The notes below the pieces were generated by a model. The model was not told where the DNA came from. It did no database searches and saw only the letters and a program-made list of their open reading frames with translations. Both the position numbers and the translations under genes were made by a program. Positions 190 through 50,650 of a stretch of 64,000 bases of DNA are shown piece by piece; position 1 is the first letter of the stretch, and each line of letters begins with the position of its first letter. This DNA is from Mobula hypostoma (taxonomy: Eukaryota). The DNA lies in assembly GCF_963921235.1 (NCBI RefSeq), contig NC_086108.1:62808001-62872000 (forward strand). The letters run 5' to 3'.

Positions 190-1300
190 GCACCATAGAA
201 AGTATCCTGTCTGGATGCATTACAGCTTGGTATGGCAACTGCTCTGCTCTTGACCATAAAAAAACTGCAGATTTGTGAGCACAACTCAGCAAATCAAGGA
301 AACCAGCGTCCCATCTATGGACACTGTCTATACTTCTCGCTGCCTTAGAAAGGGAGCCAGCATAAATAAAGACCATGCCCACAATGGCCATGATCTCTTT
401 TCCCCTCTCTCATTGGGCAGGAGGTATTAAAGCCTGAAAGCACATACCAAGTCTCAACGGCAGCTTCTACCTTGTTATAAAATGACTTGAATGATTCCCT
501 AGTATGGTAAGATGGACTCTTGATGTCAAATCAGAGAGAATCTGCAGATACTGGAAATCGAAGCGATACACACAAAATGCTCGAGGAACTCAACAGGCCA
601 GGCAGCATCTATTGAAAACAGTACAGTTGACATTTTGGGCCGAGACCCTTCAGCAGGACTGGAGAAAAAAAGATGAGGAGTAGAGTCAAATGGTGGGGGG
701 AGGGGAGAGAGAAACACAAGGTGATAGGTGAAACTGAGAGATGGAGGGGTGAAGTAAAGAGCTGGGAAGTTGATTGGTAAAAGAGATACAGGGCTGGAGA
801 AGGGAGAATCTAATTAGAGAGGACAGAAGGCCCTGGAAGAATAGAAAAGGGGGGAGGAACACCAGAGATGAGCAAGCAGAGAGGGAAAAGGCGATAAGGA
901 ATGGTGAAGGAGAGGGTGTGAGGGCCATTACCAGAAGTTTGAGAAATTAATGTTCATGCCATCAGGTTGGAGGCTATCCAGAGGGAATATAAGGTGTTGT
1001 TCCTCCAACCTGAGTGTGGTTACATCACAGGCGTACCAGAATGGGAATGGGAATTGGAATTAAAATGGGTGGCCACTGGAAGATCCTGCTTTTTCTGGTG
1101 CAAAATGATGTCACAATTTACATTGTTATGATCTTACGCATTATTCTTCTGCCTGCACTGTACTTTCTCTGTAGCCGTAATACTTTATTCTATATTCTGA
1201 TACTGTTTTATCTGGTACCCCTGTGCTCTGTGTAATAATTTGATCTATATGAACAGTATGCAAGTCTGCCTGTGACAACACCAAACCAATTCCAATTTCA
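190..1300 (+). mobile_element. Rex1/Babar-type LINE 3' fragment, split by a PLE insertion at 529-1105
   Basis: Similar to the 3' part of other Rex1 copies here (catagaaagtatcctgtctggatgcattacagcttggtatgg vs 13700-13740). Resumes after 1113 and ends near ccaattccaatttc. Confidence 0.7.
529..1105 (-). mobile_element. Older Penelope-like element 3' fragment (GIY-YIG C-terminus, pLTR, decayed hammerhead)
   Basis: Collinear with 4230-4830. Flanked by the 8-bp direct repeat tgatgtca (521-528 and 1106-1113). The hammerhead at ~625-660 reads CTGCTGA...AAAA on the - strand, so its core is mutated. Confidence 0.85.
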
Positions 1301-2535: not shown

Positions 2536-3775
2536 GTATGTATAAAAAAACTGTATGACTTTATTGAACAAAAGAACTATTCATAGAATAAGCTGTATTT
2601 TTGTAGTACAGGAATCCAGCATCTTGTCTACTCTGTTTAAGTCACTGAAATCTAACACTATAGTTTTATGTCAACTCTCAATGCATTTGTAAATATTAAA
2701 TTCAATATTACATGTAATCTTAATCCTTACACCAGTTGGCATGAGGTACAGTACATGATTATTAATGCAGAATTTTGAAATTGCTCTTAAGTGAGCAATT
2801 GGCAAGTAGTTTCATCTATAAAACTAAACTTTGCTGACTTGATATGTTGAGCCATTATGGTTTTTTTCTGGATGAGTGGAGCCACTAGAAAATCGCACTG
2901 TTATGATTATTTCTCAAACAGTACTGTACTTTTACATTCTAGTTAATTGTTTCTCAATGGCCAGAAATAGACTTTGTTACCAAGAATAATCTGTTTACTC
3001 TGGAAAGTGAGAGGCCGGAAATGATGCCCACTGCAGTGATTCCATTTGTTTGTCAGGTGGTTCACAGTTTCTCAGCTGCCAGAAGGACCAGTACACTTCA
3101 GGGCTGGTTTTCGTGAACAAATTAAATAGATCAGCAACTGCAATCAATGTATTAAAAAAAACCAAGCACGTTATTGTTCCTGGATTATTTGTGACATTGC
3201 TATGTAGTCTTTCAGTGACTTAATCCTAAACTGGTGTGCAAGGGCCAATTTTTAGACTCAGTCACTTCCTGGCAGTACTTATTGTATTTCAGTAATTCAC
3301 ATGTAAAACAAGGCTTCTCCCTAAAATGGAACCATATTTTAACAGCATATTAGGGAAAAATGATGCCCTCAGGATATGAAGCCTGAAATTTGTCTTTGAC
3401 TATGAACATAGTTATAACTAAATATCAAAGTTTGCAGACTTTTTGATCTCTATTGCATTTTGGCATGCTGCATATTTACTTCCAGCAGATAATTTCATGT
3501 GGATTTTAAGAGAAGGTATTTCATGGATAGAACATGAAGAGGAGAGACAATGGAGGAAAATGGGGAGAAAGTACAGCCAAGATTTATTCAAATAATGCAT
3601 AATTTTGTGATAAGAATCTCTACAGTTTGGAATTATTTAGATATCTGCACAGGTGAATTATGAAGAATGAAGTGGGGAGGATTAAATCAAATTTGCAATC
3701 AGTAGATAGAGAAAAATACAGAATATAATGGCAAAAACAGCTTTCAATTTTATTAAATTTCTTTTGATCCTTCAG

Positions 3776-3887
3776 AAAATAACTCAGATGGTTGACTTGA
3801 GCCATATCCAAGGCATTGGCTTTGATGCCACCTGCTCTCTTGTTGTACTTGATGAAAACTTTGAACCTCTAGCTGTGAACGCAGAAG
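3776..3887 (+). CDS. FGGY: FGGY coding exon 2 (112 nt)
   Basis: Acceptor ttcag, then KITQMVDLSHIQGIGFDATCSLVVLDENFEPLAVNAE+G, donor gtaaag. Contains the conserved GFDATCSLVV motif. Confidence 0.95.
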
Positions 3888-3974
3888 GTAAAGCTATTGT
3901 TACTTCATATCAGAAAGATATATATCGATCTATTATATAATACCATTCAAAATATTTCAAAGGCGTTGCAGCTA

Positions 3975-4043
3975 TAGTTGTGCTGCAAAGTTAACAAATT
4001 TCACAACATATGCTGGTGATATTAAACCTGACTCTAATTCTGA
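3975..4043 (+). mobile_element. Rex1-type LINE 3' tail fragment
   Basis: acaaatttcacaacatatgctggtgatattaaacctgactctaattctga matches the tails at 14110-14161 and 24585-24632. Confidence 0.7.
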
Positions 4044-4322
4044 ACGGTGTTATATTACATAAGTAGCTTTGCCAAAAGTTAAAAACCTACCATTAGAGTC
4101 ATGCTGTGGAATATCTCCTAGAAACTGGAGTGCACAGCCTTGTTTTCCAATTATGGAAAGAGATTACACGCTTTATGCATGGTAGGTTATATCTAACTAA
4201 TCTTAAAGAGTAGCTTTAAACGCAAAACAACAGGAATTCTGCAGATGCTGGAAATTCAAGTAACACACATCAAAGTTGCTGGTGAACGCAGCAGGCCAGG
4301 CAGCATCTCTAGGAAGAGGTAC

Positions 4323-4358
4323 AGTCGACGTTTCAGGCCGAGACCCTTCGTCAGGACT
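4323..4358 (-). ncRNA. Minimal type I hammerhead ribozyme motif (PLE pLTR, inverted arm)
   Basis: Exact reverse complement of 7033-7068, with an intact CUGACGA / GAAA / GUC core. Confidence 0.85.
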
Positions 4359-4919
4359 AACTGAAGGAAGAGTGAGTAAGAGATTTGAAAGTTGGAGGGG
4401 GAGGGGGAGATCCAAAATGATAGGAGAAGACAGGAGGGGGAGGGATAGAGCCAAGAGCTGGACAGGTGATAGGCAAAAGGGGATACGAGAGGATCATGGG
4501 ACAGGAGGTCCGGGAAGAAAGACAAGGGGTGGGGGGAGACCCAGAGGATGGGCAAGAGGTATATTCAGAGGGACAGAGGGAGAAAGAGGAGAGTGAGAGA
4601 AAGAATGTGTGCATAAAAATAAGTAACAGTTGGGGTACGAGGGGGAGGTGGGGCCTTAGCGGAAGTTAGAGAAGTCAATGTTCATGCCATCAGGTTGGAG
4701 GCTACCCAGACGGAATATAAGGTGTTGTTCCTCCAACCTGAGTGTGGCTTCATCTTTACAGTAGAGGAGGCCGTGGATAGACATGTCAGAATGGGAATGG
4801 GATGTGGCCACTGGGAGATCCTGCTTTCTCTGGCGGACAGAGCGTAGATGTTCAGCAAAGCGGTCTCCCAGTCTGCGTCGGGTCTCGCCAATATATAAAA
4901 GGCCACATCGGGAGCACCG

Positions 4920-6735
4920 CTCTGCTCTCCACTCTCTCCACACTAATCCTAACCTTATTATTAAACCCGCCGATAAGGGGGGTGCTGTTGTAGTCTGGCG
5001 TACTGACCTCTACTTTGCCGAGGCACAGCAACAACTCGCGGATACCTCCTCTTATTTACCCCTCGATCGTGACCCCACTAAGGAGCACCAGGCCATTGTC
5101 TCCCTCACCATCACCGACTTTATCTGCTCAGGGGATCTCCCATCCACTGCTACCAACCTTATAGTTCCCACACCCCGCACTTCCCGTTTCTACCTCCTAC
5201 CCAAGATCCACAAACCTGCCTGTCCTGGCCGACCTATTGTCTCAGCTTGCTCCTGCCCCACCGAACTCGTTTCTGCATACCTCGACACGGTTTTATCACC
5301 CCTTGTTCAATCCCTTCCGACCTATGTTCGTGACACTTCTCACGCTCTTAAACTTTTCGATAATTTTAAGTTCCCTGGCCCCCACCGCTTTATTTTCACC
5401 ATGGATATCCAGTCCCTATATACTTCCATCCCCCATCAGGAAGGTCTCAAAGCTCTACGCTTCTTTTTGGATTCCAGACCTAATCAGTTCCCCTCTACCA
5501 CCACTCTGCTCCGTCTAGCGGAATTAGTCCTTACTCTTAATAATTTCTCCTTTGGCTCCTCCCACTTCCTCCAAACTAAGGGTGTAGCTATGGGCACCCG
5601 TATGGGTCCTAGCTATGCCTGCCTGTTTGTTGGGTTTGTGGAACAATCTATGTTCCATGCCTATTCTGGTATCTGTCCCCCACTTTTCCTTCGCTACATC
5701 GACGACTGCATTGGCGCTGCTTCCTACACGCATGCAGAACTCGTTGACTTTATTAACTTTGCCTCCAACTTTCACCCTGCCCTCAAGTTTATTTCCGACA
5801 CCGCCCTCCCCTTTCTAGATCTTTCTGTCTCTGTCTCTGGAGACAGCTTACCCACTGATGTCTACTATAAGCCTACTGACTCTCACAGCTATCTGGACTA
5901 TTCCTCTTCTCACCCAGTCTCTTGCAAAAACGCCATCCCCTTCTCGCAATTCCTCCGTCTCCGCTGCATCTGCTCTCAGGATGAGGCTTTTCACTCTAGG
6001 ATGAGGGCGATGTCTTCCTTTTTTAAAGAAAGGGGCTTCCCTTCCTCCACTATCAACTCTGCTCTTAAACGCATCTCCTCCATTTCACATAATCTGCTCT
6101 CACTCCATCCTCCCGCCACCCCACTAGGAATAGGGTTACCCTGGTCCTCACCTACCACCCCACCAGCCTCCGGGTCCAACATATTATTCTCCGTAACTTC
6201 CGCCACCTCCAACGGGATCCCACCACTAAGCACATCTTTCCCTCCCCCCCCTCTGCTTTCCGCAGGGATCGCTCCCTACACAACTCCCTTGTCCATTCGT
6301 CCCCCCCATCCCTCCCCACTGATCTCCCTCCTGGCACTTATCCGTGTAAGCGGAACAAGTGCTACACATGCCCTTACACTTCCTCCCTTACCACCATTCA
6401 GGGCCCCAAACAGTCCTTCCAGGTGAGGCAACACTTCACCTGTGAGTCGACTGGGTACTGTCTACTGCGTCCGGTGCTCCCGATGTGGCCTTTTATATAT
6501 TGGCGAGACCCGACGCAGACTGGGAGACTGCTTTGCTGAACATCTATGCTCTGTCCGCCAGAGAAAGCAGGATCTCCCAGTGGCCACATCCCATTCCCAT
6601 TCTGACATGTCTATCCACGGCCTCCTCTACTGTAAAGATGAAGCCACACTCAGGTTGGAGGAACAACACCTTATATTCCGTCTGGGTAGCCTCCAACCTG
6701 ATGGCATGAACATTGACTTCTCTAACTTACGCTAA
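4920..6735 (+). pseudogene. PLE reverse transcriptase + GIY-YIG endonuclease, 5'-truncated and frameshifted
   Basis: ORF 4783-6426 is RT-like from ~4920 to ~6090, then leaves frame. The endonuclease is in ORF 6442-6735. Confidence 0.9.
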
Positions 6736-7032
6736 GGCCCCACCGCCCCCTCGTACCCCATCTGTTACTTATTTTTATGCACACATTCTTTCTCTCACTC
6801 TCCTTTTTCTCCCTCTGTCCCTCTGAAAATACCTCTTGCCCATCCTCTGGGTCTCCCCCCACCCCTTGTCTTTCTTCCCGGACCTCCTGTCCCATGATCC
6901 TCTCGTATCCCCTTTTGCCTATCACCTGTCCAGCTCTTGGCTCTATCCCTCCCCCTCCTGTCTTCTCCTATCATTTTGGATCTCCCCCTCCCCCTCCAAC
7001 TTTCAAATCTCTTACTCACTCTTCCTTCAGTT

Positions 7033-7068
7033 AGTCCTGACGAAGGGTCTCGGCCTGAAACGTCGACT
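7033..7068 (+). ncRNA. Minimal type I hammerhead ribozyme motif (PLE pLTR)
   Basis: AGTC-CTGACGA-AGGGTCTCGGCCT-GAAA-CGTC-GACT: stem I AGTC/GACT, conserved CUGANGA box, short stem II, GAAA, palindromic ACGU in place of stem III. Predicted cleavage after GUC at 7064. Confidence 0.85.
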
Positions 7069-8384
7069 GTACCTCTTGCTAGAGATGCTGCCTGGCCTGC
7101 TGCATTCACCAGCAACTTTGATGTGTGTTGCTTAAAGAGTAGCTGTTGCCTACGTGGTCTTTAGCAAAGCATTTGGCAAAGCCTCGCATGGGTGGTTGGT
7201 CAAGAAAGTTGAGTTGCTTGGCATTCAAGATGAGCTGGGAAATTGGATTAGATACTGGCTTCGTGGGAGAAGCCAGAAAGTGGTAGTAGATGGTTGCCTC
7301 TCTGGCTGGTGACCTGTGCCTAGTGGAGTGCTGCAGAGACGGGCGCTAGGTCGGTTTTTGCTTGTCATCTATATCAACGATCCGAATGATAATGTGATAA
7401 AATGGAAAAGAAAATTTTTGGATGACACCAAGATTGGATGTGCAGTGGGCAGCGAGGAAGACTATCAAAGCTTGCAGTGAGATCTTGATGAATTGGAAAA
7501 ATGGGCTAAAATCTGACCGATGGAATGCAATGCAGGCAAATGTGAAGTGTTGCATTTGGAAGGACAAACCAGGGTAGGACTTGCACAGTGAGTGGCAGGG
7601 CACTGAGGACTACAGTAGCACAGAGTAATCTGGGAATACAGATCCATAATTTCATTGGAAGTGGCATCACAGGTAGATAGGGTCATAAAGAAAGCTTTTG
7701 GCATATTGGCCTTCATAAATCGAAGTATTGAGTACAGGAGTTGGGATGTTATATTGAAGATATTTAAGACATTGGTGAGGCCCAATTTGGAGTATTGTGT
7801 GCAGATTTGGTCACCTACCTACAGGAAAGATGTAAATCAGGTTGAAAGAGTGCAGGGAAAATTTACAAGAATGTTGCTGGGTTTGAAGGAGTTATAAGGA
7901 AAGATTGAATAGGTTTGGACTTCATTCCCTACAGTATAGAAAGTGAAGGGAGATTTGATAAAAGTATACAAAGTTATTGGAGTGGTATAGATAGGGTAAA
8001 TACAAGCAGGCTTTTACCACTGAGGTTCGGTGAGACTCAGATGAGAAGTCATGGTTAAGGGTGAAAGAAAATATTTAAAGGGAACATGAGGGGGAAATTC
8101 TTCACAAAGTGGGTGGTGATTGTGTGGAACGAGCTGCCAGAGGAAGTAGTGAATGCGGGTTGGATTTCAAAATTTAAGAGAAATTTAGATAGGTACATGA
8201 TGGGAGGGGTATGGAGGGCTCTTGATTTGGGTATAGGTCGATGGAACAAGGCAGATTCATTGCTCAGCACAGACTAGATGGGCCGAAGGCCCTATTTCTG
8301 TGCTGTGGTGCTCTGTTTCTCTAATTTTATGGATTTTCAGGATTGCTATAAACCCATCCAAACCATCCTAATTTTTCTACCTGT

Positions 8385-8560
8385 TACCCACACTAGGGAT
8401 AAATTACGGGAACCAATTAATCTACCACCCAATGTGCCTTTGGGATGTGGGAAGGAACCAGTACCTAGTGACAGGGAGAGCAAGCAAACTTCACATGGAT
8501 GGCACTGAAAGTTGGGGTTGAATTCAAATAGTTAGAACTTTGAGGCATTTGTACCAGATC
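8385..8560 (-). mobile_element. Degraded tRNA-derived V-SINE
   Basis: ctttgggatgtgggaaggaacc is the reverse complement of the V-domain-like motif seen at 33332-33361. Confidence 0.6.
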
Positions 8561-8993
8561 AGTGCAAATCAGTTACTTGCTTCAAAATCAGTCTTAATAC
8601 TGATGGAATTGAAGTGTTAACCAGGCAGATTTAGTAAAGAATGAATTAATTTGTCATATAATTTCAAATCTTGCATCTTCAAGGATTCCATTCATTGCCA
8701 AAATTAATTCTCACTTTTACAGTATAGAACATCTAAATATGTTTTCTAAAACTTTCATTTGTTTAATAATTAAAAAAAGGAAAATCCATATCATTTATAC
8801 CAGTATCTACATTTATTTTTTTAAAGATTTTGACTAAGGATTTGCCTTCGTACAGCATGCGATAAATAATTAGCAAAGTTTTTGACAATGTGTTTGATAT
8901 TTGGATTGCAGCTTTTTTTTGACCTATGGGATTATGCTATTAAGATAGCTGTCATACTGTGGTTTTAATGCTTTTTTGCTACATATGATGCAG

Positions 8994-9145
8994 GGGTGAA
9001 CAATAGGAACATTATCATGTGGATGGATCATCGAGCGGTTGATCAAGTAGACCGAATAAATCAAACAAAACACTCTGTGCTACATTATGTGGGCGGAGTG
9101 ATGTCCCCAGAAATGCAGCCACCAAAGCTTCTTTGGTTAAAAGAA
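8994..9145 (+). CDS. FGGY: FGGY coding exon 3 (152 nt)
   Basis: Acceptor tgcag, then (G)[50 protein letters not shown], donor gtaag. W-D-RA and PKLLWLKE are FGGY motifs. Phase fits the previous exon. Not in the ORF track. Confidence 0.95.
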
Positions 9146-9789: not shown

Positions 9790-10020
9790 TCACAGACACA
9801 AGGCTGCAGATACTGTAAAGTAAAAATCAAACTGTTGGAGAAACTCAAGCAGCACACATAAAAATTGCTGGTGAATGCAGCAGGCCGGGCGGCATCTATA
9901 GGAAGAGGTACAGTTGACGTTTCGGGCCAAGACCCTTGGAGAAACTCAACTGGTTAGGAAGCATCTGTGAATGTAAAGGGGTAGTTGACTTTTTGGATCA
10001 AGACCCTGCATCAGTGCTGG
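9790..10020 (-). mobile_element. Old PLE pLTR remnant containing a nested 87-bp younger pLTR fragment (9849-9935)
   Basis: The inner piece matches 4260-4347 and is flanked by the 14-bp direct repeat ttggagaaactcaa (9835-9848 and 9936-9949). The outer piece has a decayed hammerhead at ~9983-10018. Confidence 0.8.
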
Positions 10021-12094: not shown

Positions 12095-14600
12095 GTTTTT
12101 CAAGAAAGGCTCTAAGAATAAACTGGAAAATTATAGGCCCGTGAGCCTGATGTCAGTAGTGGGTATATTATTGCAAGATATGCTAAGAGACAAGATATAT
12201 AAATAGTTGGATAGACAGGGTTTGATTAGGAATAGTCATTATGGCTTTGTACATGGTAGGTCATGTCTAAACAATCTCATAGAGCTTTTGGAGGAGGTTA
12301 CCAGGAAGGTTGGTGAAGAAAAAGCAGTGGACGTTGTCTACATGAACTTTAGCAGGGCCTTTGACAAAATTCCGCATGGAAGGCTGGTCCAGAAGGTAAA
12401 GTTACTTGGCACTCAGGATGATGTAGTCATTGGATCTGACAGTAGCTTAGCAGGAGAAGCCAGAGTGTAGTAGTAGATGGCTGTCTCTTTGACTGGAGAC
12501 CTGTGACTAGTGGTATGCTACAGGGATCAGTGCTGAGTCTGCTGGTGTTTAACACCTATATTAATGATTTAGATGATAATGTGGTAAACTGGATCAGCAA
12601 ATTTGCAGATGACACCAAGATTAGGAGGGGGGGTGTAGAGGGCAGCAAGAAAGGCTATCAAAGTTTGCAGCGCCAAACTGGGAAAGTAGGTTGAAAAATA
12701 GCATATGGAATTTAACATTGACAATTGTGCGGTGTTGCAGTTTGGGAGAATGATCCGGGGCAAGATGTATACAGTGAATGGTAGGGCTCTGAGTTGTGCA
12801 GTAGAACAAAGGAATATTGGGGGGGAGGAGTATAGATTGATAATTACTTGAAAGTTGCATCACAGCTAGATAGGGTAGTAAAGGAGCTTTTAGCATATTT
12901 GCTCTGATGAAGTGCTTTGAGAGGTTGGTCATGGCCTAAGCAAAATCCTGAACTCACTGCAATTTGCCTTTCGCCACAATAGGTCTAAAGCGGGTGCAAT
13001 CTCACTGGCTCTCCACTCGGCCTTGGATATCTTAGACAATAGTAATACCTGTGCCAGAGTGCTGTTTGTTGATTACAGCTCAGTGTTTAACCCCGTCATA
13101 CCCTCTGTACTAATAAACAAGCTCCAGAACTTCAGCCTCTGTACCTCCTTCTGCAGCTGGATCCTTAACTTCCTCATTGGGAGACCACAGTCAGTGTGGA
13201 TCAGAAGTAACATTTCCTTGCTGACAGTTAACACTGGCATACCTCAAGGATGCACACTTAGCCCACTGCTCTATTCTCTCTAACACCCATGACTATGTGG
13301 CTATGTACAGCTCAAACATCATCTGTAAATTTGCTGACGATACAACCGTTGTTGGCGGAATTTCAGATGGTGATGAGAAGGCATACAGGAGTGAGAGAGA
13401 TCAGCTGGTTGAGTGGCGTTGCAACAACAACCATATGCTGAACGTCATTAAGACCAAGGAACTGATTGTGGACTTCAGGAAAGGGAAGTCAAGAGAGCAC
13501 ACACCAGTCCTCATTGAGGGACCAGCAGTGGAAAGGTTGAACAGTTTCAAGTTCCTGGGTGTCAACGTTTCTGATGATCTACCCTGGGCTCAACATATTA
13601 ATGTGATTACAAAGAAGGCACGACAGCAGCTATATTCATCAGGAGATTGAGGAGATCTGGTGTGACACCAAAGACTCTTGCAAATTTCTATGGATGTACT
13701 GTGGAGAGCATTCTTACTGGTTACATCACCATCTGGTACAGAGGGGTGACTGCACAGGATTGGAAAAAGCTGCAGAAAGTTGTGAACTCAGCCAGCTCCA
13801 TCATGGACACTATTCTACCCAACATCCAGGACATTTTCAAAAGGTGATGTCTCATAAAGGCAGCCTCCATGATTAAGGACCCCATTATCCAGGACATGCC
13901 CTCTTCTCATTGCTACCATCAAGGAGGTGGTACAGGAGCCTGAAGACATACCTCAATGCTTTACGAACAGCTTCTTCTCTGCCGTTAGATAATGAACCCA
14001 TGTACACTATGTCAATATTCATACACTATTTATTTAATTTATTAAAATGTATTTCTTATTCTAATTTATAGTTTTATTATTATGTATTGCAATATACTGC
14101 TGCCACAAATAAACAGATTTCGTGACATATGCCAGTGATATTAAATCTGATTCTGATTCTGATTGGCCTTCATAATCAGGGCATTGAGTACAGGAATTAA
14201 GATGTTATGTTGAGGTTGTTTAAGATGTTAGTGAGGCCAGACTTAGAATAGCGAATGCAGTACTGGTCACGTACTTATAGGAAAGCTATCAATAAGCTTG
14301 AAAGAGTGCAGAGAAAAATTACAGGGATGTTGCTAGGACTTGAGGACCTTAGTTATAGGGAAAGATTGACTAAGTTAGCACCTTATTCCCTGGAGCACAG
14401 GAGAATTAGGGGAGATGGTGCATGTGGAATGAGCTGTTATCAGATGCAGTGAATGTGGGTTCACTTGTAATGTTTGAGAATAGTTTGGATAAGGACATGA
14501 ATGAGTTGTTTAGACCGATATGGTCCAAGTGCAGTCAGGTGTGAAAAGGCAGAAAATTGAGTCAGTATAGACTGGGTAAGCTGAAGAGCCTGTTTCTGTT
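12095..14600 (+). mobile_element. Degraded CR1 LINE split by a Rex1 insertion
   Basis: HYGFVHGRSCLNNL, DVVYMNFSRAFDKIPH and KFADDTKI. Resumes at ~14163 (ttggccttcataa) through LERVQRK and the 3'UTR. Confidence 0.85.
12902..14161 (+). mobile_element. Rex1/Babar LINE, 5'-truncated
   Basis: RVLFVDYSSVFN, GIPQGCTLSPLLYSL, KFADDTT and [11 protein letters not shown]; (ATTCTG)n tail. Confidence 0.9.
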
Positions 14601-17012: not shown

Positions 17013-17140
17013 TATATATACACACACACTTGTAATTTATAATTTTAAAATTATTACGTATTGCAATTTATTGCTGCCGCAAAACAACAATTTTCATGAT
17101 GTATGGCAGTGATATTAAAAGTGAATCTGATTCTGATTCT
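16560..17140 (+). mobile_element. Internally deleted Rex1 LINE
   Basis: 16560-16790 is homologous to the reverse complement of 20920-21150 and is joined directly to the 3' region; ends tctgattctgattct. Confidence 0.8.
16919..17029. repeat. Compound (TA)/(TG)/(CA) microsatellite inside the Rex1 3'UTR
   Basis: Visible alternating purine-pyrimidine dinucleotide tracts. Confidence 0.95.
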
Positions 17141-19747
17141 ACTTGTCAGTAAAGTATAGTGTATTGTTTTTGTACTTATGTAGCTTCTTTGTAAGCCTGA
17201 GATGTCATGGCAGAGTAAATTATAACTCTCAATGTTGTTTCACAGACTGTCTTTATTAGAGAAGACTCCCAAATCTAATCAGTTCAAACTAGCATGCAGT
17301 ATAAAGGGGAAATACGAGGTGCAGTGCTTTGATACTGGCCTTCCTGCTTTTCCTCTTACTGCTATTCTTTGCTGCTACTCTGTATTTTACTTTACTTTTT
17401 ACTTCATGTTACTTACCTTTCACACTGTCTTACCTGTACAATGATGAGCATCCAATATAACAGCTATAACCATAAGATTTGTACCTCATTCTTGACTTCC
17501 TAAGAATCTTTTGGACAATATCATCTCCAGATCTAACACTTGCTGTTTCTTAAGTGTTTCAGTCACTGCAGCTGGGTAGTTAGATCTTTTTATTTATACG
17601 ATTAATTGCAGTGGAAAAAATCTGGCGTAGGATATCTCCTAGCTTTCTAGGATTGTGATATACAATTGTACTAAATAAGGTGTCAGTCTCCTCCTTCCAG
17701 GGCTGACAAGTACTTCACTTTCTACATTGACCTCAAAGTCAACTAGGGAAATTGACAACCATTTCCAGCTTCTCTTTTGTGTGGGATGACTACAATTGTA
17801 TATTGTCAGCAGGTTATCCAGAATACTGGTCAGCAGAGAAGGAATTACTATTTACTGAAATCACTGAAGCAAGATGCCAAAGCAGCTTTCATAGTGTCTC
17901 CCTGTGACATACAATTTTATGAATAAAATGGAACGCCCAATGAGGAACAAATGAAGCCCTGTGCATAATAAGCCATCAGCATCCCAGTAACACTCAATGT
18001 AGCAGAGTTGTGGAGGTGCTCCAAGAGAGAGTCAAGTGTTTGGTAGCTCCTACCAATACACCTTATACTTGTAGTGGTGTACAGTCTGAAGGAGACATGG
18101 AATAGATGAGATATGACGTCAACATTTGCGTTCAGATAATGAAAACCAGAGTGAGGAAATAGCAAAGGAAAAAAGTCTGATTAAACACCTTGAGGAAGAG
18201 GAACAAGAGCTGAGTTCATCATAAAATAATTGTGTGACTTGCTTGTTTTCCTAAACTGAAAAAGTACACTGCATTTATAATTCTTGTTACAACATTCACC
18301 TTCCCTTAATTCTATAACAAGGAACACTGAAACCATTCAGTCAATTCACATGTCAATGACAGACTGACAATGTAGACTCAGAAGCTGACTTAAAACCACA
18401 TTGCACACCACAGAGCCAAAAGTGATTAAGATGAAAAATTTCTTCCCCAGCACGAGAATTGATTTCATTTTGCCTCTAGTTTAGTGTCAATTCCTGCTGC
18501 ATTCATATAAAGTGTATTAAGTTAACTGTTCCAACGTATACCTCCCCTAGCAGCCCAGGAAAGTTGGTGGATAGCTGTTACGCATGCCTAAATATTTGAG
18601 ATACTTTGATATTTGATATTCACGTCTTTTCTTTGACCCTTGAATGCCAAATGACAAATCTTTGTGTCTTGGCTCTTTTAGTCCTTTTAATCCAGCTAAT
18701 TCCAATGTACTGCACATGTTCAGCTGGAGTCTTCACATTTTGAGTCTCAACACTGAACTTCCTTTGAAGGACTAGAGTTATATAACACCTAGTGAGAGGA
18801 AAACGCATTGTCTACTGGACAATAAAAATAGCACCAATGCTGATTCCACAAGATCCTCCAAAGTCACTGGAATGAAAAGTCAGTGTCTCCTAGGCCAGCA
18901 TCCACATTACTGAGGCCCTAGTACTGGAATTGGACTCAAACTGCTTTGGACATCCAGGCAATGGCAACTGTAAGACTGCAGCTTTTCAAAAGTACTATCT
19001 TCTTAGAAATGTGAGGCTTAGTAAGATAATGAAATCTGCTGGAAAGATGTGCAGAAGTAATGCTTCATAACCATGGCTGAGAAGTTCCTTCCCCAAAACT
19101 CTAAAGAATGGCACTGTATGTTTAATTTAAAAAACCTATATGTCTAATTTAAAAAATTCTTGGTGTCTGACTGTCTGTTGTGAATTCAGTTATTACTTTT
19201 TGGCATGATTTAGATATCCTAACTTCTGAAAGGTAAACAACAGTAGTACTCAAAATTTGGTTTTAATGGCATTTGTCTGTAAAATAAGCACTTCTATTTA
19301 CTCACAGAACAAATCAACCTTCAATCTGTAATAAAGAAGTTCTCATGTGTTTTTACTGTATTTCCTATGGAGGTCAGAGTAATGATCACTGGTTGAATAG
19401 ATTACAGGGAAATAAATGGGAAATTATAATTGACGGGATTGCTCTCACTGGTAAATTTAATGGTCTAGTTGGCCTCCTTCCATGTTATAAGGAAATATGA
19501 TGTCTTTGGTACAGAATCAAAGTGGCTATTGCTTATCACTGCTACATTGCATGGTTTGTTGCTTATTACTAAATTAAGGAGATAAAACGCTGCATTATGA
19601 AAGCGAGAAAGCTTCATCTGCTCACAGGTATGTGCATTTTCCTGCGTTGCATGCTTTTCCCTAGTGCAGGTAATCTTAGATTGCACTCATGTCTACAGTA
19701 ATCTCCCTGACAATTTCTGTCAAGACCACCTGGCTAAAAAACTAGAG

Positions 19748-21898
19748 TCAGAATCAGAATCAGGTTTATTATCACTGGCATGTGACGTGAAATTTGTTAA
19801 CTTAGCAGCAGCAGTTCAATGCAATACATAATCTAACAGAGAGAGAGAGAGGAAAAAAAAGAACATAATAATAAGTAAATAAGTAAATCATTTACATATA
19901 TTGAATAGATTTTTAAAAATATCCCTAAAGATGTCCTGGGTACTTTGTAGGCTACTGTCCAAGATGGAGCTAACTAGATTTACAAACTTCTGCAGCTTCT
20001 TTCAGTCCTGTGCAGTACCCCTCCATACTAGACAGTGATGCAGCCTGTCAGAATGCTCTCCACAATCAACTATAGAAGTTTTTGAGTGTATTTGTTGACA
20101 TGCCAAATCTCTTCAAACTCCTAATAAAATATAGCAGTTGTCTTGCCTTCTTTAAGACTACATCGATATGTTGGGACCAGGTTAGATCCTCAGAGATTGT
20201 GACACCAAGGAACTTGAAGCTGCTTACTGTCTCCACTTCTGATCCCTCTATGAGGATCGGTATGTGTTCCTTCGCCTTACCCTTCCTGAAGTCCACAATC
20301 AGCTCTTTTGTCTTATTGACATTGAGTGCCAGGTTGTTGCTGCGGCACCATTCCGCTAGTTGGTATATCTCACTCCTGTACGCCCTCTCGTCACCACCTG
20401 GGATTCTACCAACAATGGTTGTATTGTCAGCAAATTTGTAGATGGTATTTGAACTATGCCTAGCCACACGGTCATGTGTATACTGAGAGTAGAGCAGTGG
20501 GCTAAGCACACACCCCTGAGGTGCACCAGTGTTGATCGTCAGCAAGGAGGATATGTTATCACCAATCTGCACAGACTGTGGTCTTCCGGTTAGGAAGTTG
20601 AGGATCCAATCGCAGAGGGAGGTACAGGGGCCCAGGTTCTACAACTTCTCAATCAGGATTGTGGGAATGATGGTATTAAATGCTGAGCTATAGTCGATGA
20701 ACAGCATCCTGACGTAGGTGTTTGTGGTGTCTAGGTGGTCTAAAGCCATGTGGAGAGTCATTGAGATCGCATCTACCATTGAACTATTGTGGCGATAGGA
20801 AAATTGCAATGGATCCAGACCCTTGCTGAGGCAGGAGGTCAATCTAGTTATAACCAACCTCTCAAAGCATTTCATCACTGTCGATGTGAGTGCTACCAGG
20901 AGATAGTCATTTAGGCAGCCCACATTATTCTTCTTAGGCACTGGTATAATTGTTGCCTTTTTGAAGCAAGTGGGAACTTCTGCCCCTAGCAGTAAGAGGT
21001 TGAAAATGTCCTTGAATACTCCCACTAATTGGTTGGCACAAGTTTTCAGAGCCTTACCCAGTACTCCCATCGGGATCTTCCGCCTTGCGATGGTGTACTC
21101 TCTTTAAAGACAGTCTAACATTGGCCTCTGAGACGGAGATCACAGGGTCATCAGGTGCAGCAGGGATCTTCACAGCTGTAGTTGTGTTCTCCCTTTCAAA
21201 GCATGCATAGAAGGCGTTGAGTTCATCTGGTAGTGAAACATCGCTGCAATTCATGCTATTGGGTTTCGTTTTGTAGGAAGTAATGTCTTGCAGACCCTGC
21301 TAGAGTTACTGTGCATCTGATAACGTCTCCAACCTCGTTTGAAATTGTCTCTTTGCCCTTGAAATAGATCTCCACAGCTCATACCTGGTTTTCTGGTATA
21401 GACCTGGGTTGCCAGATTTGAATGCCACAGATCTAGCCTTCAGCAGACGACATACCTTCTGGGTCATCCACGGCTTTTGGTTTGGGAATGTACAGTAAGT
21501 CTTTGTAGGCACACACCCATCCACACAGGTTTTAATGAAGTCGGTAACAACTGCAGGATACTCATCCAGATTCAAAGACGAATCCCTGAATGCAGTCCAG
21601 TCCACTGATTCAAAGCAGTCCTGTAGGTGCTCCTGTGCTTCCCTTATCCAAACTTTCTTGGTCCTCACTACTGGTGCTGCAGTCTTCAGTCTCTGCCAAT
21701 ACTCAGGGAGTACAAGTACAGCCAGGTTATCAGACTTACTGAAGTGAGGGCGTGGAATAGCACGATAGGCATTCTTGATGGGGGTGTAGCAATGGTCCAG
21801 TGTGCTGTTTCCTCTGGTATTGCAAGTGATCTGTTGATGGTAATTGCATAGTGATTTTTTTTCAGACTGGCCTTGTTAAAGTCTCCCAAAACGATGGG
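19748..21898 (-). mobile_element. Rex1/Babar LINE, ~2.1 kb, from the end of the endonuclease to the 3' tail
   Basis: [26 protein letters not shown] and [14 protein letters not shown] in successive minus-strand ORFs; (TCAGAA)n tail at 19748. Confidence 0.92.
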
Positions 21899-47700: not shown

Positions 47701-47850
47701 AGCAATACACGCAAAATGTTGGAGGAACTCAGCAGGCCATGCAGCATCTATGGAAAAAAAAATAGAGTCGACTTTTCAGGCCGAGGTCCTTTGGTAGAAC
47801 TGTGTGTGTTGCTTTGATTTCCAGCATCTGCAGATTTTCTCTTGTTTGTG
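47701..47850. mobile_element. Short inverted PLE pLTR remnant
   Basis: 47701-47800 matches 4260-4358 with a decayed hammerhead. 47801-47850 is the opposite orientation, including the terminal extension. Confidence 0.8.
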
Positions 47851-48669: not shown

Positions 48670-49110
48670 AGGATATATAGATAAATGGCAGGAATCTTAG
48701 AAGTGTTAATATACAGAGGGAGCTGGGAATGCAAGTTTATTGTTCATTGAAAGTGGTTACACAAGAAGGGCAGTGAAGAATGTATTTTGTATGTCCATCG
48801 GCTGAATTATTGAGAATAAGGGATGGCATAGTTTCAAGTTACAACAGTAACGAAAAGTTGTAGATACAGCCCAGTCCATCGCGGGTAAAGCTGAGCACAT
48901 TTACACAGAACACTGTCGCAAGAAAGCAGCATCCATCAGCAGGAGCCCCCAACCAGGCCAAACTTTCTGCTCGCTGCTGCCATCAGGAAGAAGGTATGGA
49001 GCTCACACCACCAGGTTCAGGAACAGTCTTGGCCTGAAACATCGACTGTTTATTCATTTCCATAGATACTGCCTGACCTGCTGAGATCCTCCAGCATTTT
49101 GTGTGTTGCT
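48670..49110 (+). mobile_element. Stacked fragments: CR1 (~48670-48845), Rex1 (~48850-49025), PLE pLTR (~49026-49110)
   Basis: Each piece matches longer copies elsewhere in the window; gtcttggcctgaaacatcgactg is the 3' half of the hammerhead. Confidence 0.7.
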
Positions 49111-50650
49111 TTATTCATATAAATTTTGTTTCAGATGTTTATTTTTTGTCTTCTGCATGAGTGGTTCAGTAGAAAAGAGCAAAAGTTAGATTTCCAAACA
49201 TTCATTTTCCAAAAAAAATGTTACAGTGAGAGTTTTGTATTTTGTTAAAGACGCATATTAAGCAATAGACCACTTTTTGCATAGAAACTTGATCATTTTG
49301 TAAGTATATAATCCAGTGCATGATTAAACAAAGTTAACAATTAGGATGCTAATGATCAATGACATAATGAACTAAACTGATGAACTGAAACAAAAACAGT
49401 TGTAGAATGAATCAAACTGGGCGACAGACAACCAAACTAAAAGGTGAGGGTGTGGCAGATGCGACTGTTTAACCTTCAAAAGATCAATTCTTACACCATG
49501 GCAAAAGTGAACGAAGTACAAAGACACAGGTGGTCATTCTGTGTGGACAAGGCCTCTCTCAAGCAGCAATTTTGTGGCAGACTGGAGTTTCAAGATGCGT
49601 TGTTCAAGCTCTTCCGAAGAAGAACAAAGAAACAGGCAAGTTGAGGACCAGAAATGCAGTGGTCAGCCATGGAAACTGAGTGCAGCAGATGAGAGATACA
49701 TCAAACTGTTGTCCATTCTAAATCAGAAGCCCAGCACAGATATCATCTCTGAACTCACAGAAACCATTAGGAATCCAAGTAGACCCATCTATAGTCTAGA
49801 GAAGTCTTGTCAAAAGAGGACTTCATGGAAAAGCTGCTGCCAAAATGCTATTCCTCTGAAGTTGAAACAATGCCAAGAGATTCACCAATGCACAAAAACA
49901 CACTGACTGGAGAGCTGAACAATGGCAGCAAGTGCTCTGGAATGACTCGTCAAAATTTGAAATTTTTGGCTCAAACAATCAGCAGTGTGTTCGTAGAAGA
50001 GCTGGAGGGTGCTACATGGATGAGTGTTTGCAGCCAACGGTGAAGCACAGTGGAGGTTCCCTGCAGATTTGGTGCTGCATTTCTACAAATAGAGTTGGTG
50101 ATCAAGTCAGAATTAATGGAATTTTCAATGCTAAGAAGTACAAGCAGATTCTCATCCATCATTAGGTGCAATGAGGAAGGCATCTGATCAATCCTAACTT
50201 CATTCTGCAGCAGAACAATGACTTCAAATACACGACCAAGGTCATAAAGAGCTACTGTATCTTCAGCAAAACAAAAAAACAAGGAGTTTTGCAACAGATG
50301 GTGTGGCCGCCACAGAGCCCTGATCTTAACATAATTGAAGCTGTCTGGGATTACCTGGAAAGACAGAAGCAAATGAGACCACCAAAGTTCACAGAACAAC
50401 TGTGGCAAGTTCTTTAAGTTGTTTGGAACAGCCTACCAGCCGATTTTCTTAAAAAAACTGCATAGCAGTGTGCCTAAGAAAATTGAGGCAATTTTAAAGG
50501 CAAAGGTGGTCAAACCAAATATTGATTTGATTTAGTATTTTTACCATTTACTGCTCTTTATAGTAAATGTTTTGATATATAGAAACTTTTCATTTCGTTA
50601 TTTTTGAAAACATCTTCAATTGTGTGCCTAGGACTTTTGCACTATACAGT
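49111..50650 (+). mobile_element. Tc1 DNA transposon with a degraded transposase (~49498-50522); left TIR not seen
   Basis: VLWNDSSKFEIFGS, PTVKHSGGSLQIW, LQQNND and WPPQSPDLNIIEAVW (DD34E-type motifs). Right end cctaggacttttgcac. Confidence 0.9.

What the first reader, a model, noticed from the sequence alone, without database searches (positions are those of the whole stretch)
7033..7068. Intact minimal hammerhead ribozyme in sense orientation within the FGGY pre-mRNA, with its own antisense copy upstream
Seen: all core nucleotides are present (CUGACGA 7037-7043, GAAA 7057-7060, GUC 7062-7064), with stem I AGUC/GACU and a short stem II. Stem III is reduced to the palindrome ACGU. The exact complement lies at 4323-4358. 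Established: PLE pLTRs carry such minimal type I hammerheads, which are thought to cleave as dimers. Inference: a self-cleaving motif in a host intron could cut the pre-mRNA, but here the previously transcribed antisense arm can sequester it and no intact same-strand partner is nearby. This suggests a built-in ribozyme/anti-ribozyme lock that may make inverted insertions tolerable inside genes. All other sense-strand copies I found in this window are decayed or partial.
Basis: partly seen in the sequence, partly recalled or inferred. Interest (0 to 1): 0.75.

Follow-up and report, generated by a model that had tools for sequence, protein, structure and literature searches.

The report
Ordinary Penelope insertion with mirrored hammerhead
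A broken copy of a very common Penelope-type jumping gene sits in an intron of the FGGY gene with a mirror-image arm; its tiny hammerhead motif is one of tens of thousands of identical copies and is likely inactive on its own, so the mirror arm is likely a routine by-product of insertion rather than a safety catch.

Summary
Observation confirmed; interpretation largely unsupported. The minimal hammerhead (7033-7068) and its exact complement (4323-4358) lie in the two arms of one 5'-truncated Penelope-like insertion (4216-7130). It has a 14-bp target duplication, head-to-head arms and a one-sided tail: the published typical structure. The 36-mer occurs 32,886 times in this genome; 9 of 12 close pairs among 100 listed copies are head-to-head. 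The arm would bury the motif, but a lock seems unnecessary: published monomers do not cleave, FGGY holds no intact same-strand partner, a local hairpin is predicted to mask the core anyway, and FGGY is spliced across this intron. In 2.02 Mb of seven genes, 3 of 9 intact sense copies lack an arm. It fades when counted by state at insertion (18:27; youngest 11:12) and is absent among fully exposed motifs (11:10). A splice-acceptor-like tract just upstream is a rival target of selection. The scan noted such loci many times before.

The parts
7033..7068 (+). Minimal type I hammerhead motif at the 5' edge of the pLTR; predicted cut site 7064/7065; G10.1-U11.1 variant
   Evidence: 32,886 exact genomic copies
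4323..4358 (-). Identical hammerhead motif in the inverted arm (antisense to FGGY)
4216..4919 (-). Inverted, 5'-truncated second copy (end of endonuclease region, 3' UTR, pLTR) including a ~39-bp tail at 4216-4254 found only on this arm
4920..7130 (+). 5'-truncated Penelope-like element: RT, Cys-rich linker, GIY-YIG endonuclease, 3' UTR, pLTR without tail; reading frame broken near 6090 and 6450-6460
   Evidence: (RVT_1 E=2.3e-6; GIY-YIG E=0.004, both under Pfam cut-offs)
6472..7136 (+). Right arm of the inverted repeat (665 nt, 98.3% complementary to 4255-4919; its last bases run into the target duplication); both arms share a 15-bp deletion near 6583 that other copies lack
4202..4215 (+). 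Left copy of 14-bp target-site duplication
7131..7144 (+). Right copy of target-site duplication (first 3 bases also fit the element end)
7018..7048 (+). Predicted local hairpin pairing the upstream pyrimidine tract and UCAG with the CUGA/GAAGGGU core
   Evidence: not more stable than shuffles (z -1.12)
7010..7034 (+). Splice-acceptor-like tract in host sense: branch-point-like motif, pyrimidine tract, CAG 7028-7030 and TAG 7032-7034 (use untested)
   Evidence: sequence; consensus recalled
3776..3888 (+). FGGY exon upstream of the insertion
8993..9145 (+). FGGY exon downstream of the insertion

Best explanation
The motif is the standard minimal hammerhead of a young, broken Penelope-like (likely Neptune-type) retroelement that inserted once into an FGGY intron as a head-to-head pair, and it is likely inert in the pre-mRNA, with the antisense arm likely a mechanical by-product of integration rather than a selected lock. 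Shown: one target duplication around both arms, a one-sided tail, a private deletion shared by both arms, 32,886 identical motifs in the genome, no intact same-strand partner in FGGY, and a contig joining the two flanking exons. Inferred: the motif needs a second copy (and probably the element's protein) to cleave; in context it is predicted to be folded away twice over, by a local hairpin present in most full-context young copies and by the 665-bp arm duplex. So the arm would silence something that is already silent.
For: TSD 4202-4215/7131-7144 and tail; 15-bp deletion shared by both arms, absent in 15 alignments to other copies. Same layout called typical in PMC3846280 and PMC8557442 (passages). 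9 of 12 close pairs among the first 100 listed exact copies are head-to-head, 1.3 expected per class; 18 such units among 89 arms in seven genes, tail on exactly one arm in 17 of 18. Exact copies in these genes: 20 in 2.02 Mb, about 19 expected from genome density. 3 of 9 intact sense copies have no covering arm, one of them starting at the motif's first base with stems predicted formed (P 0.84/0.88). Uncovered whole motifs 18 sense: 27 antisense (p=0.23), youngest 11:12; fully exposed 11:10. Of 45 5' ends near the motif, 12 fall at its first base and 1 at the cut site (1.7 expected), so copied RNAs were mostly uncut. Monomer inactive, dimers weak (PMC4209133); protein needed and no RNA ends at the site in Anolis (PMC11167929). 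One RNA-guess contig joins the flanking exons with no mismatch.
Against: Strictly intact unpaired copies are 3 sense: 11 antisense (binomial p=0.057; Fisher 0.015 against non-intact family copies; 0.066 after dropping 14 truncated copies). Copies truncated inside the motif are 12 sense: 2 antisense (p=0.013), which I cannot explain. Sense solos are shorter (p=0.005). Tandem hammerhead retrozymes are reported under-represented in Xenopus introns (bioRxiv 10.64898/2026.07.22.740005, passages). The sample is 2 Mb of 3,476 Mb; no cleavage assay or raw RNA reads; the RNA individual may lack the insertion.
Confidence: 0.82

Rival explanations
1. Ribozyme/anti-ribozyme lock: sense hammerheads occasionally cut host pre-mRNA, with partners or protein supplied in trans, so uncovered copies are weakly purged and arm-covered copies survive.
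For: Arm duplex is overwhelming (36-mer -76 kcal/mol; arms -1427) and is transcribed first. 6 of 9 intact sense copies are covered versus 7 of 18 antisense (Fisher p=0.24). Unpaired intact 3:11 (p=0.057). Exact-exact pairs 3 of 17 units in genes versus 9 of 91 on C1 (p=0.40). Anolis PLE hammerhead cleaves with its protein (PMC11167929).
Against: No deficit in the class that should be most dangerous (exposed motifs 11:10). Non-intact unpaired copies, most of them presumably intact when they inserted, are 73 sense: 53 antisense. Sense copies are more diverged everywhere, not just at catalytic sites (critical 0.080 v 0.049, rest 0.073 v 0.056, downstream 0.093 v 0.067). Several cuts of the data were tried, so p near 0.05 is weak.
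Confidence: 0.07
2. The selected feature is not the ribozyme but the splice-acceptor-like tract just upstream of it (7010-7034); long sense copies risk mis-splicing, and an inverted arm would mask that acceptor as inverted Alu pairs are thought to.
For: Branch-like motif, 85% pyrimidine tract and CAG/TAG at 7010-7034. In D. virilis Penelope the intron ends at helix I (PMC4209133). Solos with this context 8 sense: 16 antisense, without it 18: 9 (Fisher p=0.025).
Against: Use of the acceptor untested; 8:16 alone is p=0.15; the excess of short sense copies cannot come from purifying selection, so part of the contrast is noise; the threshold was chosen after seeing the data.
Confidence: 0.08
3. 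The copy is a host-adopted regulatory intronic ribozyme controlling FGGY.
For: Core is intact and in sense.
Against: Identical to 32,886 repeats; arms only 1.5% diverged, so intactness is explained by youth; site probably empty in organism C (one contig); lacks helix III.
Confidence: 0.02

Closest known systems
Minimal hammerheads (min-HHR) in pLTRs of metazoan PLEs (Cervera and De la Pena 2014, PMC4209133)
   Same: Type I, 4-bp helix I, extra base between 9 and 10.1, palindromic 15.2/16.2, no helix III, thousands of solo copies, opposite-strand pairs 100-700 bp apart already noted there.
   Different: The dominant variant here has G10.1-U11.1 rather than the conserved G-C (32,886 versus 4,891 exact copies); the count of this one variant exceeds the 4,000-9,000 reported for coelacanth and Xenopus.
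Insertion units of C-terminal EN+ PLEs with adjacent inverted pLTR, one-sided 30-40 bp tail and TSD (Arkhipova et al. 2013, PMC3846280; Craig et al. 2021, PMC8557442)
   Same: 5'-truncated copy plus head-to-head inverted copy, tail at one end, TSD around the unit.
   Different: Nothing structural; the inverted arm here is long (704 bp) and reaches into the endonuclease region.
Anolis Poseidon PAc (Frangieh et al. 2024, PMC11167929)
   Same: Two clusters of 3' ends about 35 bp apart; templates apparently uncut at the hammerhead.
   Different: Different clade (Cys-rich linker here); activity of this hammerhead untested.
Ultraconserved intronic hammerheads of amniotes (review passage in PMC6765202; details recalled)
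   Same: Hammerhead in sense in a host intron.
   Different: Those are few-copy and conserved; this is a young high-copy repeat without helix III.

Membership tests
C-terminal EN+ Penelope-like element | RT followed by GIY-YIG endonuclease in one coding region | tested here: met
   RVT_1 E=2.3e-6 and GIY-YIG E=0.004, both just under Pfam cut-offs; frame now broken
C-terminal EN+ Penelope-like element | DKG motif ahead of the RT core | tested here: met
   seen in the translation near 4965; motif named in PMC8557442
C-terminal EN+ Penelope-like element | pLTR with hammerhead; inverted 5'-truncated copy; one-sided tail; TSD | tested here: met
Neptune clade | CX2-5CxxC linker between RT and EN | tested here: met
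   C-x4-C-x2-C in ORF 6093-6539; feature from PMC8557442
Neptune clade | Placement in RT phylogeny | not tested
   no tree built; Nematis also has such a linker
Minimal type I hammerhead (min-HHR) | CUGANGA, GAAA, NUH core with helices I and II | tested here: met
Minimal type I hammerhead (min-HHR) | Palindromic 15.2/16.2, no helix III | tested here: met
   ACGU 7060-7063
Minimal type I hammerhead (min-HHR) | G10.1-C11.1 pair | tested here: not met
   G-U wobble in this copy and its subfamily; G-C in the sister variant. Described as highly conserved, not part of the search descriptor, in PMC4209133
Minimal type I hammerhead (min-HHR) | Self-cleavage as a dimer | not testable with these tools
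   needs an assay; only assembled contigs were available
Rfam hammerhead families | Covariance-model match | tested here: not met
   no hammerhead hit at E<=1 in the window

The most novel reading that the evidence does not exclude
Fold-back integration shapes which Penelope copies survive in genes: sense copies whose pLTR edge (hammerhead, or the splice-acceptor-like tract that ends inside its helix I) is left unpaired are weakly purged from introns, while head-to-head units hide that edge in double-stranded RNA and are spared. That would make an insertion by-product a genome-wide self-masking device, testable on ~38,000 near-identical copies.
Probability: 0.12. Interest if true: 0.55.

Novelty: already known. 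Interest (0 to 1): 0.13.

Why it matters
As it stands it is one of about 33,000 identical motifs in a described element structure, so it matters little. If a sense deficit of uncovered copies held genome-wide, it would be an in vivo sign that minimal PLE hammerheads (or their acceptor) cost the host something, a point the papers read here leave open; this genome has the copy number to test it.

Tried and rejected
Rfam scan: no hammerhead hit, only simple-repeat miRNA matches at ~16.9 kb. RNA ends at 7064/7065 and A-to-I editing of the arms: not testable, all 24 listed runs are contigs and no holder is on record as RNA. Empty-site test: runs X5 and X9 have no cover at 4082-4147 and no listed piece of X1 or X5 covers the right junction, which proves nothing; only the single X9 contig starting at 7131 is suggestive. 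Tandem versus inverted test: 0 of 27 intact copies in seven genes had an intact same-strand partner within 4.5 kb (0 of 9 sense, 0 of 18 antisense), so it cannot discriminate. Strand runs among 76 unpaired copies on C1: 40 of 75 neighbours same strand, no signal. Local hairpin as an evolved switch: z -1.12 against shuffles, no covariation looked for formally, so kept as a prediction only. AGG/CCU register of stem II rejected on energy and on the C-variant. Lunse et al. on dimer cleavage (PMC5785218) is not held; known only through a review passage. Literature searches for a lock or intronic orientation bias found no paper proposing or testing it; most subscription papers are outside the library. 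No supplements were read; the cleavage gels of PMC4209133 are in its supplement.

Full report
Observation. All stated coordinates hold. The 36-mer at 7033-7068 has the hammerhead core, a 4-bp stem I and the ACGU palindrome, and 4323-4358 is its exact reverse complement. Stem II is better read as GGGU/GCCU after a bulged A, with a G10.1-U11.1 wobble. A variant with the canonical G-C pair exists in 4,891 exact copies, against 32,886 for the form seen here (reversed control 0 in both).

What it is. The two motifs sit in the arms of one insertion. A 14-bp duplication (4202-4215, 7131-7144) frames 4216-7130. The right part is a 5'-truncated element with RT, a C-x4-C-x2-C linker and GIY-YIG, frameshifted near 6090 and 6450-6460. 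The left part is an inverted copy of its 3' end, 98.3% complementary over 665 nt, with a ~39-bp tail that the right arm lacks. Both arms carry a 15-bp deletion near 6583 that is absent in 15 alignments to other copies, so they likely came from one template. PMC3846280 (passages) calls ORF plus adjacent inverted pLTR, optional 31-bp tail and TSD the typical Penelope structure, most often head-to-head; PMC8557442 (passages) says the same; PMC4209133 (parts 1-2 of 4 read) already notes opposite-strand hammerhead pairs 100-700 bp apart.

How common the arrangement is. Among the first 100 of 32,886 listed exact copies (contig C1, 8.5 Mb), 12 neighbour pairs lie within 4.5 kb: 9 head-to-head, 1 tail-to-tail, 2 tandem, with 1.3 per class expected. 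In 2.02 Mb from seven genes oriented by family searches (the names GMDS, CDKAL1, FARS2 are my recalled labels for those hits), 89 arms formed 18 head-to-head units, with the tail on exactly one arm in 17 (one further long pair was missed and counted once on each strand).

Is a lock needed? Published minimal hammerheads show no cleavage as monomers and low cleavage as dimers (PMC4209133); the Anolis one cleaves only with the element's protein, and no RNA reads ended at the site (PMC11167929, parts 1-2 of 4 read). In 292 kb of FGGY, 16 hammerhead-like copies were found and only the two arms are intact, so there is no partner in cis. In its own context the core is predicted to pair with the upstream tract (stem probabilities 0.02; competent fold 7.2-7.5 kcal/mol worse), though this hairpin is no more stable than shuffles. 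Genomic copies argue that templates were uncut: of 45 5' ends within -100..+60 of the motif, 12 fall on its first bases and 1 at the cut site, 1.7 expected. A 688-nt contig of run X15 (RNA is a guess; same species label) carries 2347-2533 and 3774-3888 and, by matching length, depth and offsets, 8992-9145, so FGGY is spliced across this intron; whether that individual has the insertion is unknown. The arm would certainly pair if transcribed, but would silence a motif already likely silent.

Orientation test. 175 hammerhead-like copies (up to 9 mismatches) were found in the seven genes, 93 sense and 82 antisense; 27 were strictly intact. Exact copies number 20, about 19 expected from genome density. 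Of 9 intact sense copies 6 have a covering arm and 3 do not; one of the three (C62:50,184,037) starts at the motif's first base, has both stems predicted formed and its nearest antisense relative, with 9 differences, 15.8 kb away. These are counter-examples to a required lock. Against my reading: unpaired intact copies are 3 sense to 11 antisense (p=0.057), and against non-intact family members Fisher p=0.015 (67 copies with downstream identity of at least 0.8). After removing 14 copies truncated inside the motif, whole motifs are 23:30 (p=0.41) and intactness 3 of 23 versus 11 of 30 (p=0.066); sense copies are more diverged at all positions, not only catalytic ones; and the exposed class is 11:10. 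By insertion unit, uncovered whole motifs are 18:27 (p=0.23) and 11:12 among the youngest. Non-intact unpaired copies are 73:53 in favour of sense. Selection at insertion should have left a deficit in these too. Two asymmetries remain: truncated-in-motif copies 12:2 and shorter sense solos. I made several cuts of a small sample, so none of these p-values is strong. A 2026 preprint (10.64898/2026.07.22.740005, passages) reports tandem hammerhead retrozymes under-represented in Xenopus introns, so a cost of active ribozymes in introns is not far-fetched.

A rival target. Directly upstream of the motif lies a branch-like motif, an 85% pyrimidine tract and CAG/TAG (7010-7034); the second AG ends inside helix I, as the Penelope intron of D. 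virilis is reported to. Solos with this tract are 8 sense to 16 antisense, those without 18 to 9 (Fisher p=0.025, post hoc). If anything is masked by the arm, this acceptor is as good a candidate as the ribozyme; the parallel with inverted Alu pairs rests on search listings only. Its use is untested.

Verdict. Already known: an ordinary PLE insertion with its usual minimal hammerhead. Earlier AI notes of this scan reached similar readings at other loci; they are unchecked and were not used as evidence. Searches found no paper on a ribozyme/anti-ribozyme lock, so the idea may be unpublished, but my data give it about a one-in-ten chance in any form. Interest 0.13.

Noticed in passing
window 7033 and copies in L001-L200: 5' ends of family copies pile up at the first base of hammerhead helix I (12 of 45 nearby ends), not at the cut site; likely the transcript start. 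Also noted by earlier scan reports.
   Followed up: partly
window 7056; genome-wide: The dominant variant has G10.1-U11.1 (32,886 exact copies) instead of the conserved G-C (4,891), so the latest burst may have come from elements with a weaker ribozyme.
   Followed up: partly
window 7010-7034: Splice-acceptor-like tract ending inside helix I; some relatives carry TACTAAC there. May be the element's own intron end.
   Followed up: partly
seven genes: Copies truncated inside the hammerhead are 12 sense: 2 antisense to the host gene; unexplained.
   Followed up: no
window 4765-6426: The antisense-arm sequence reads in frame across the inversion junction into RT, giving a 553-codon stop-free stretch; probably chance.
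   Followed up: no
window 3981-4043, 14076-14164, 17050-17144, 19740-19832: Short 3' ends of another very abundant repeat family, ending in TCTGAT-type repeats.
   Followed up: no
window 7145-8300: The Penelope unit landed at the edge of an older LINE-like fragment (about 75% alike to 12429-12622 and 14174-14400).
   Followed up: no
window 541-1098 (-), 9840-9937 (-), 47725-47847, 49012-49111 (+): Older, decayed copies of the same family; 47725-47847 is itself a small fold-back.
   Followed up: partly
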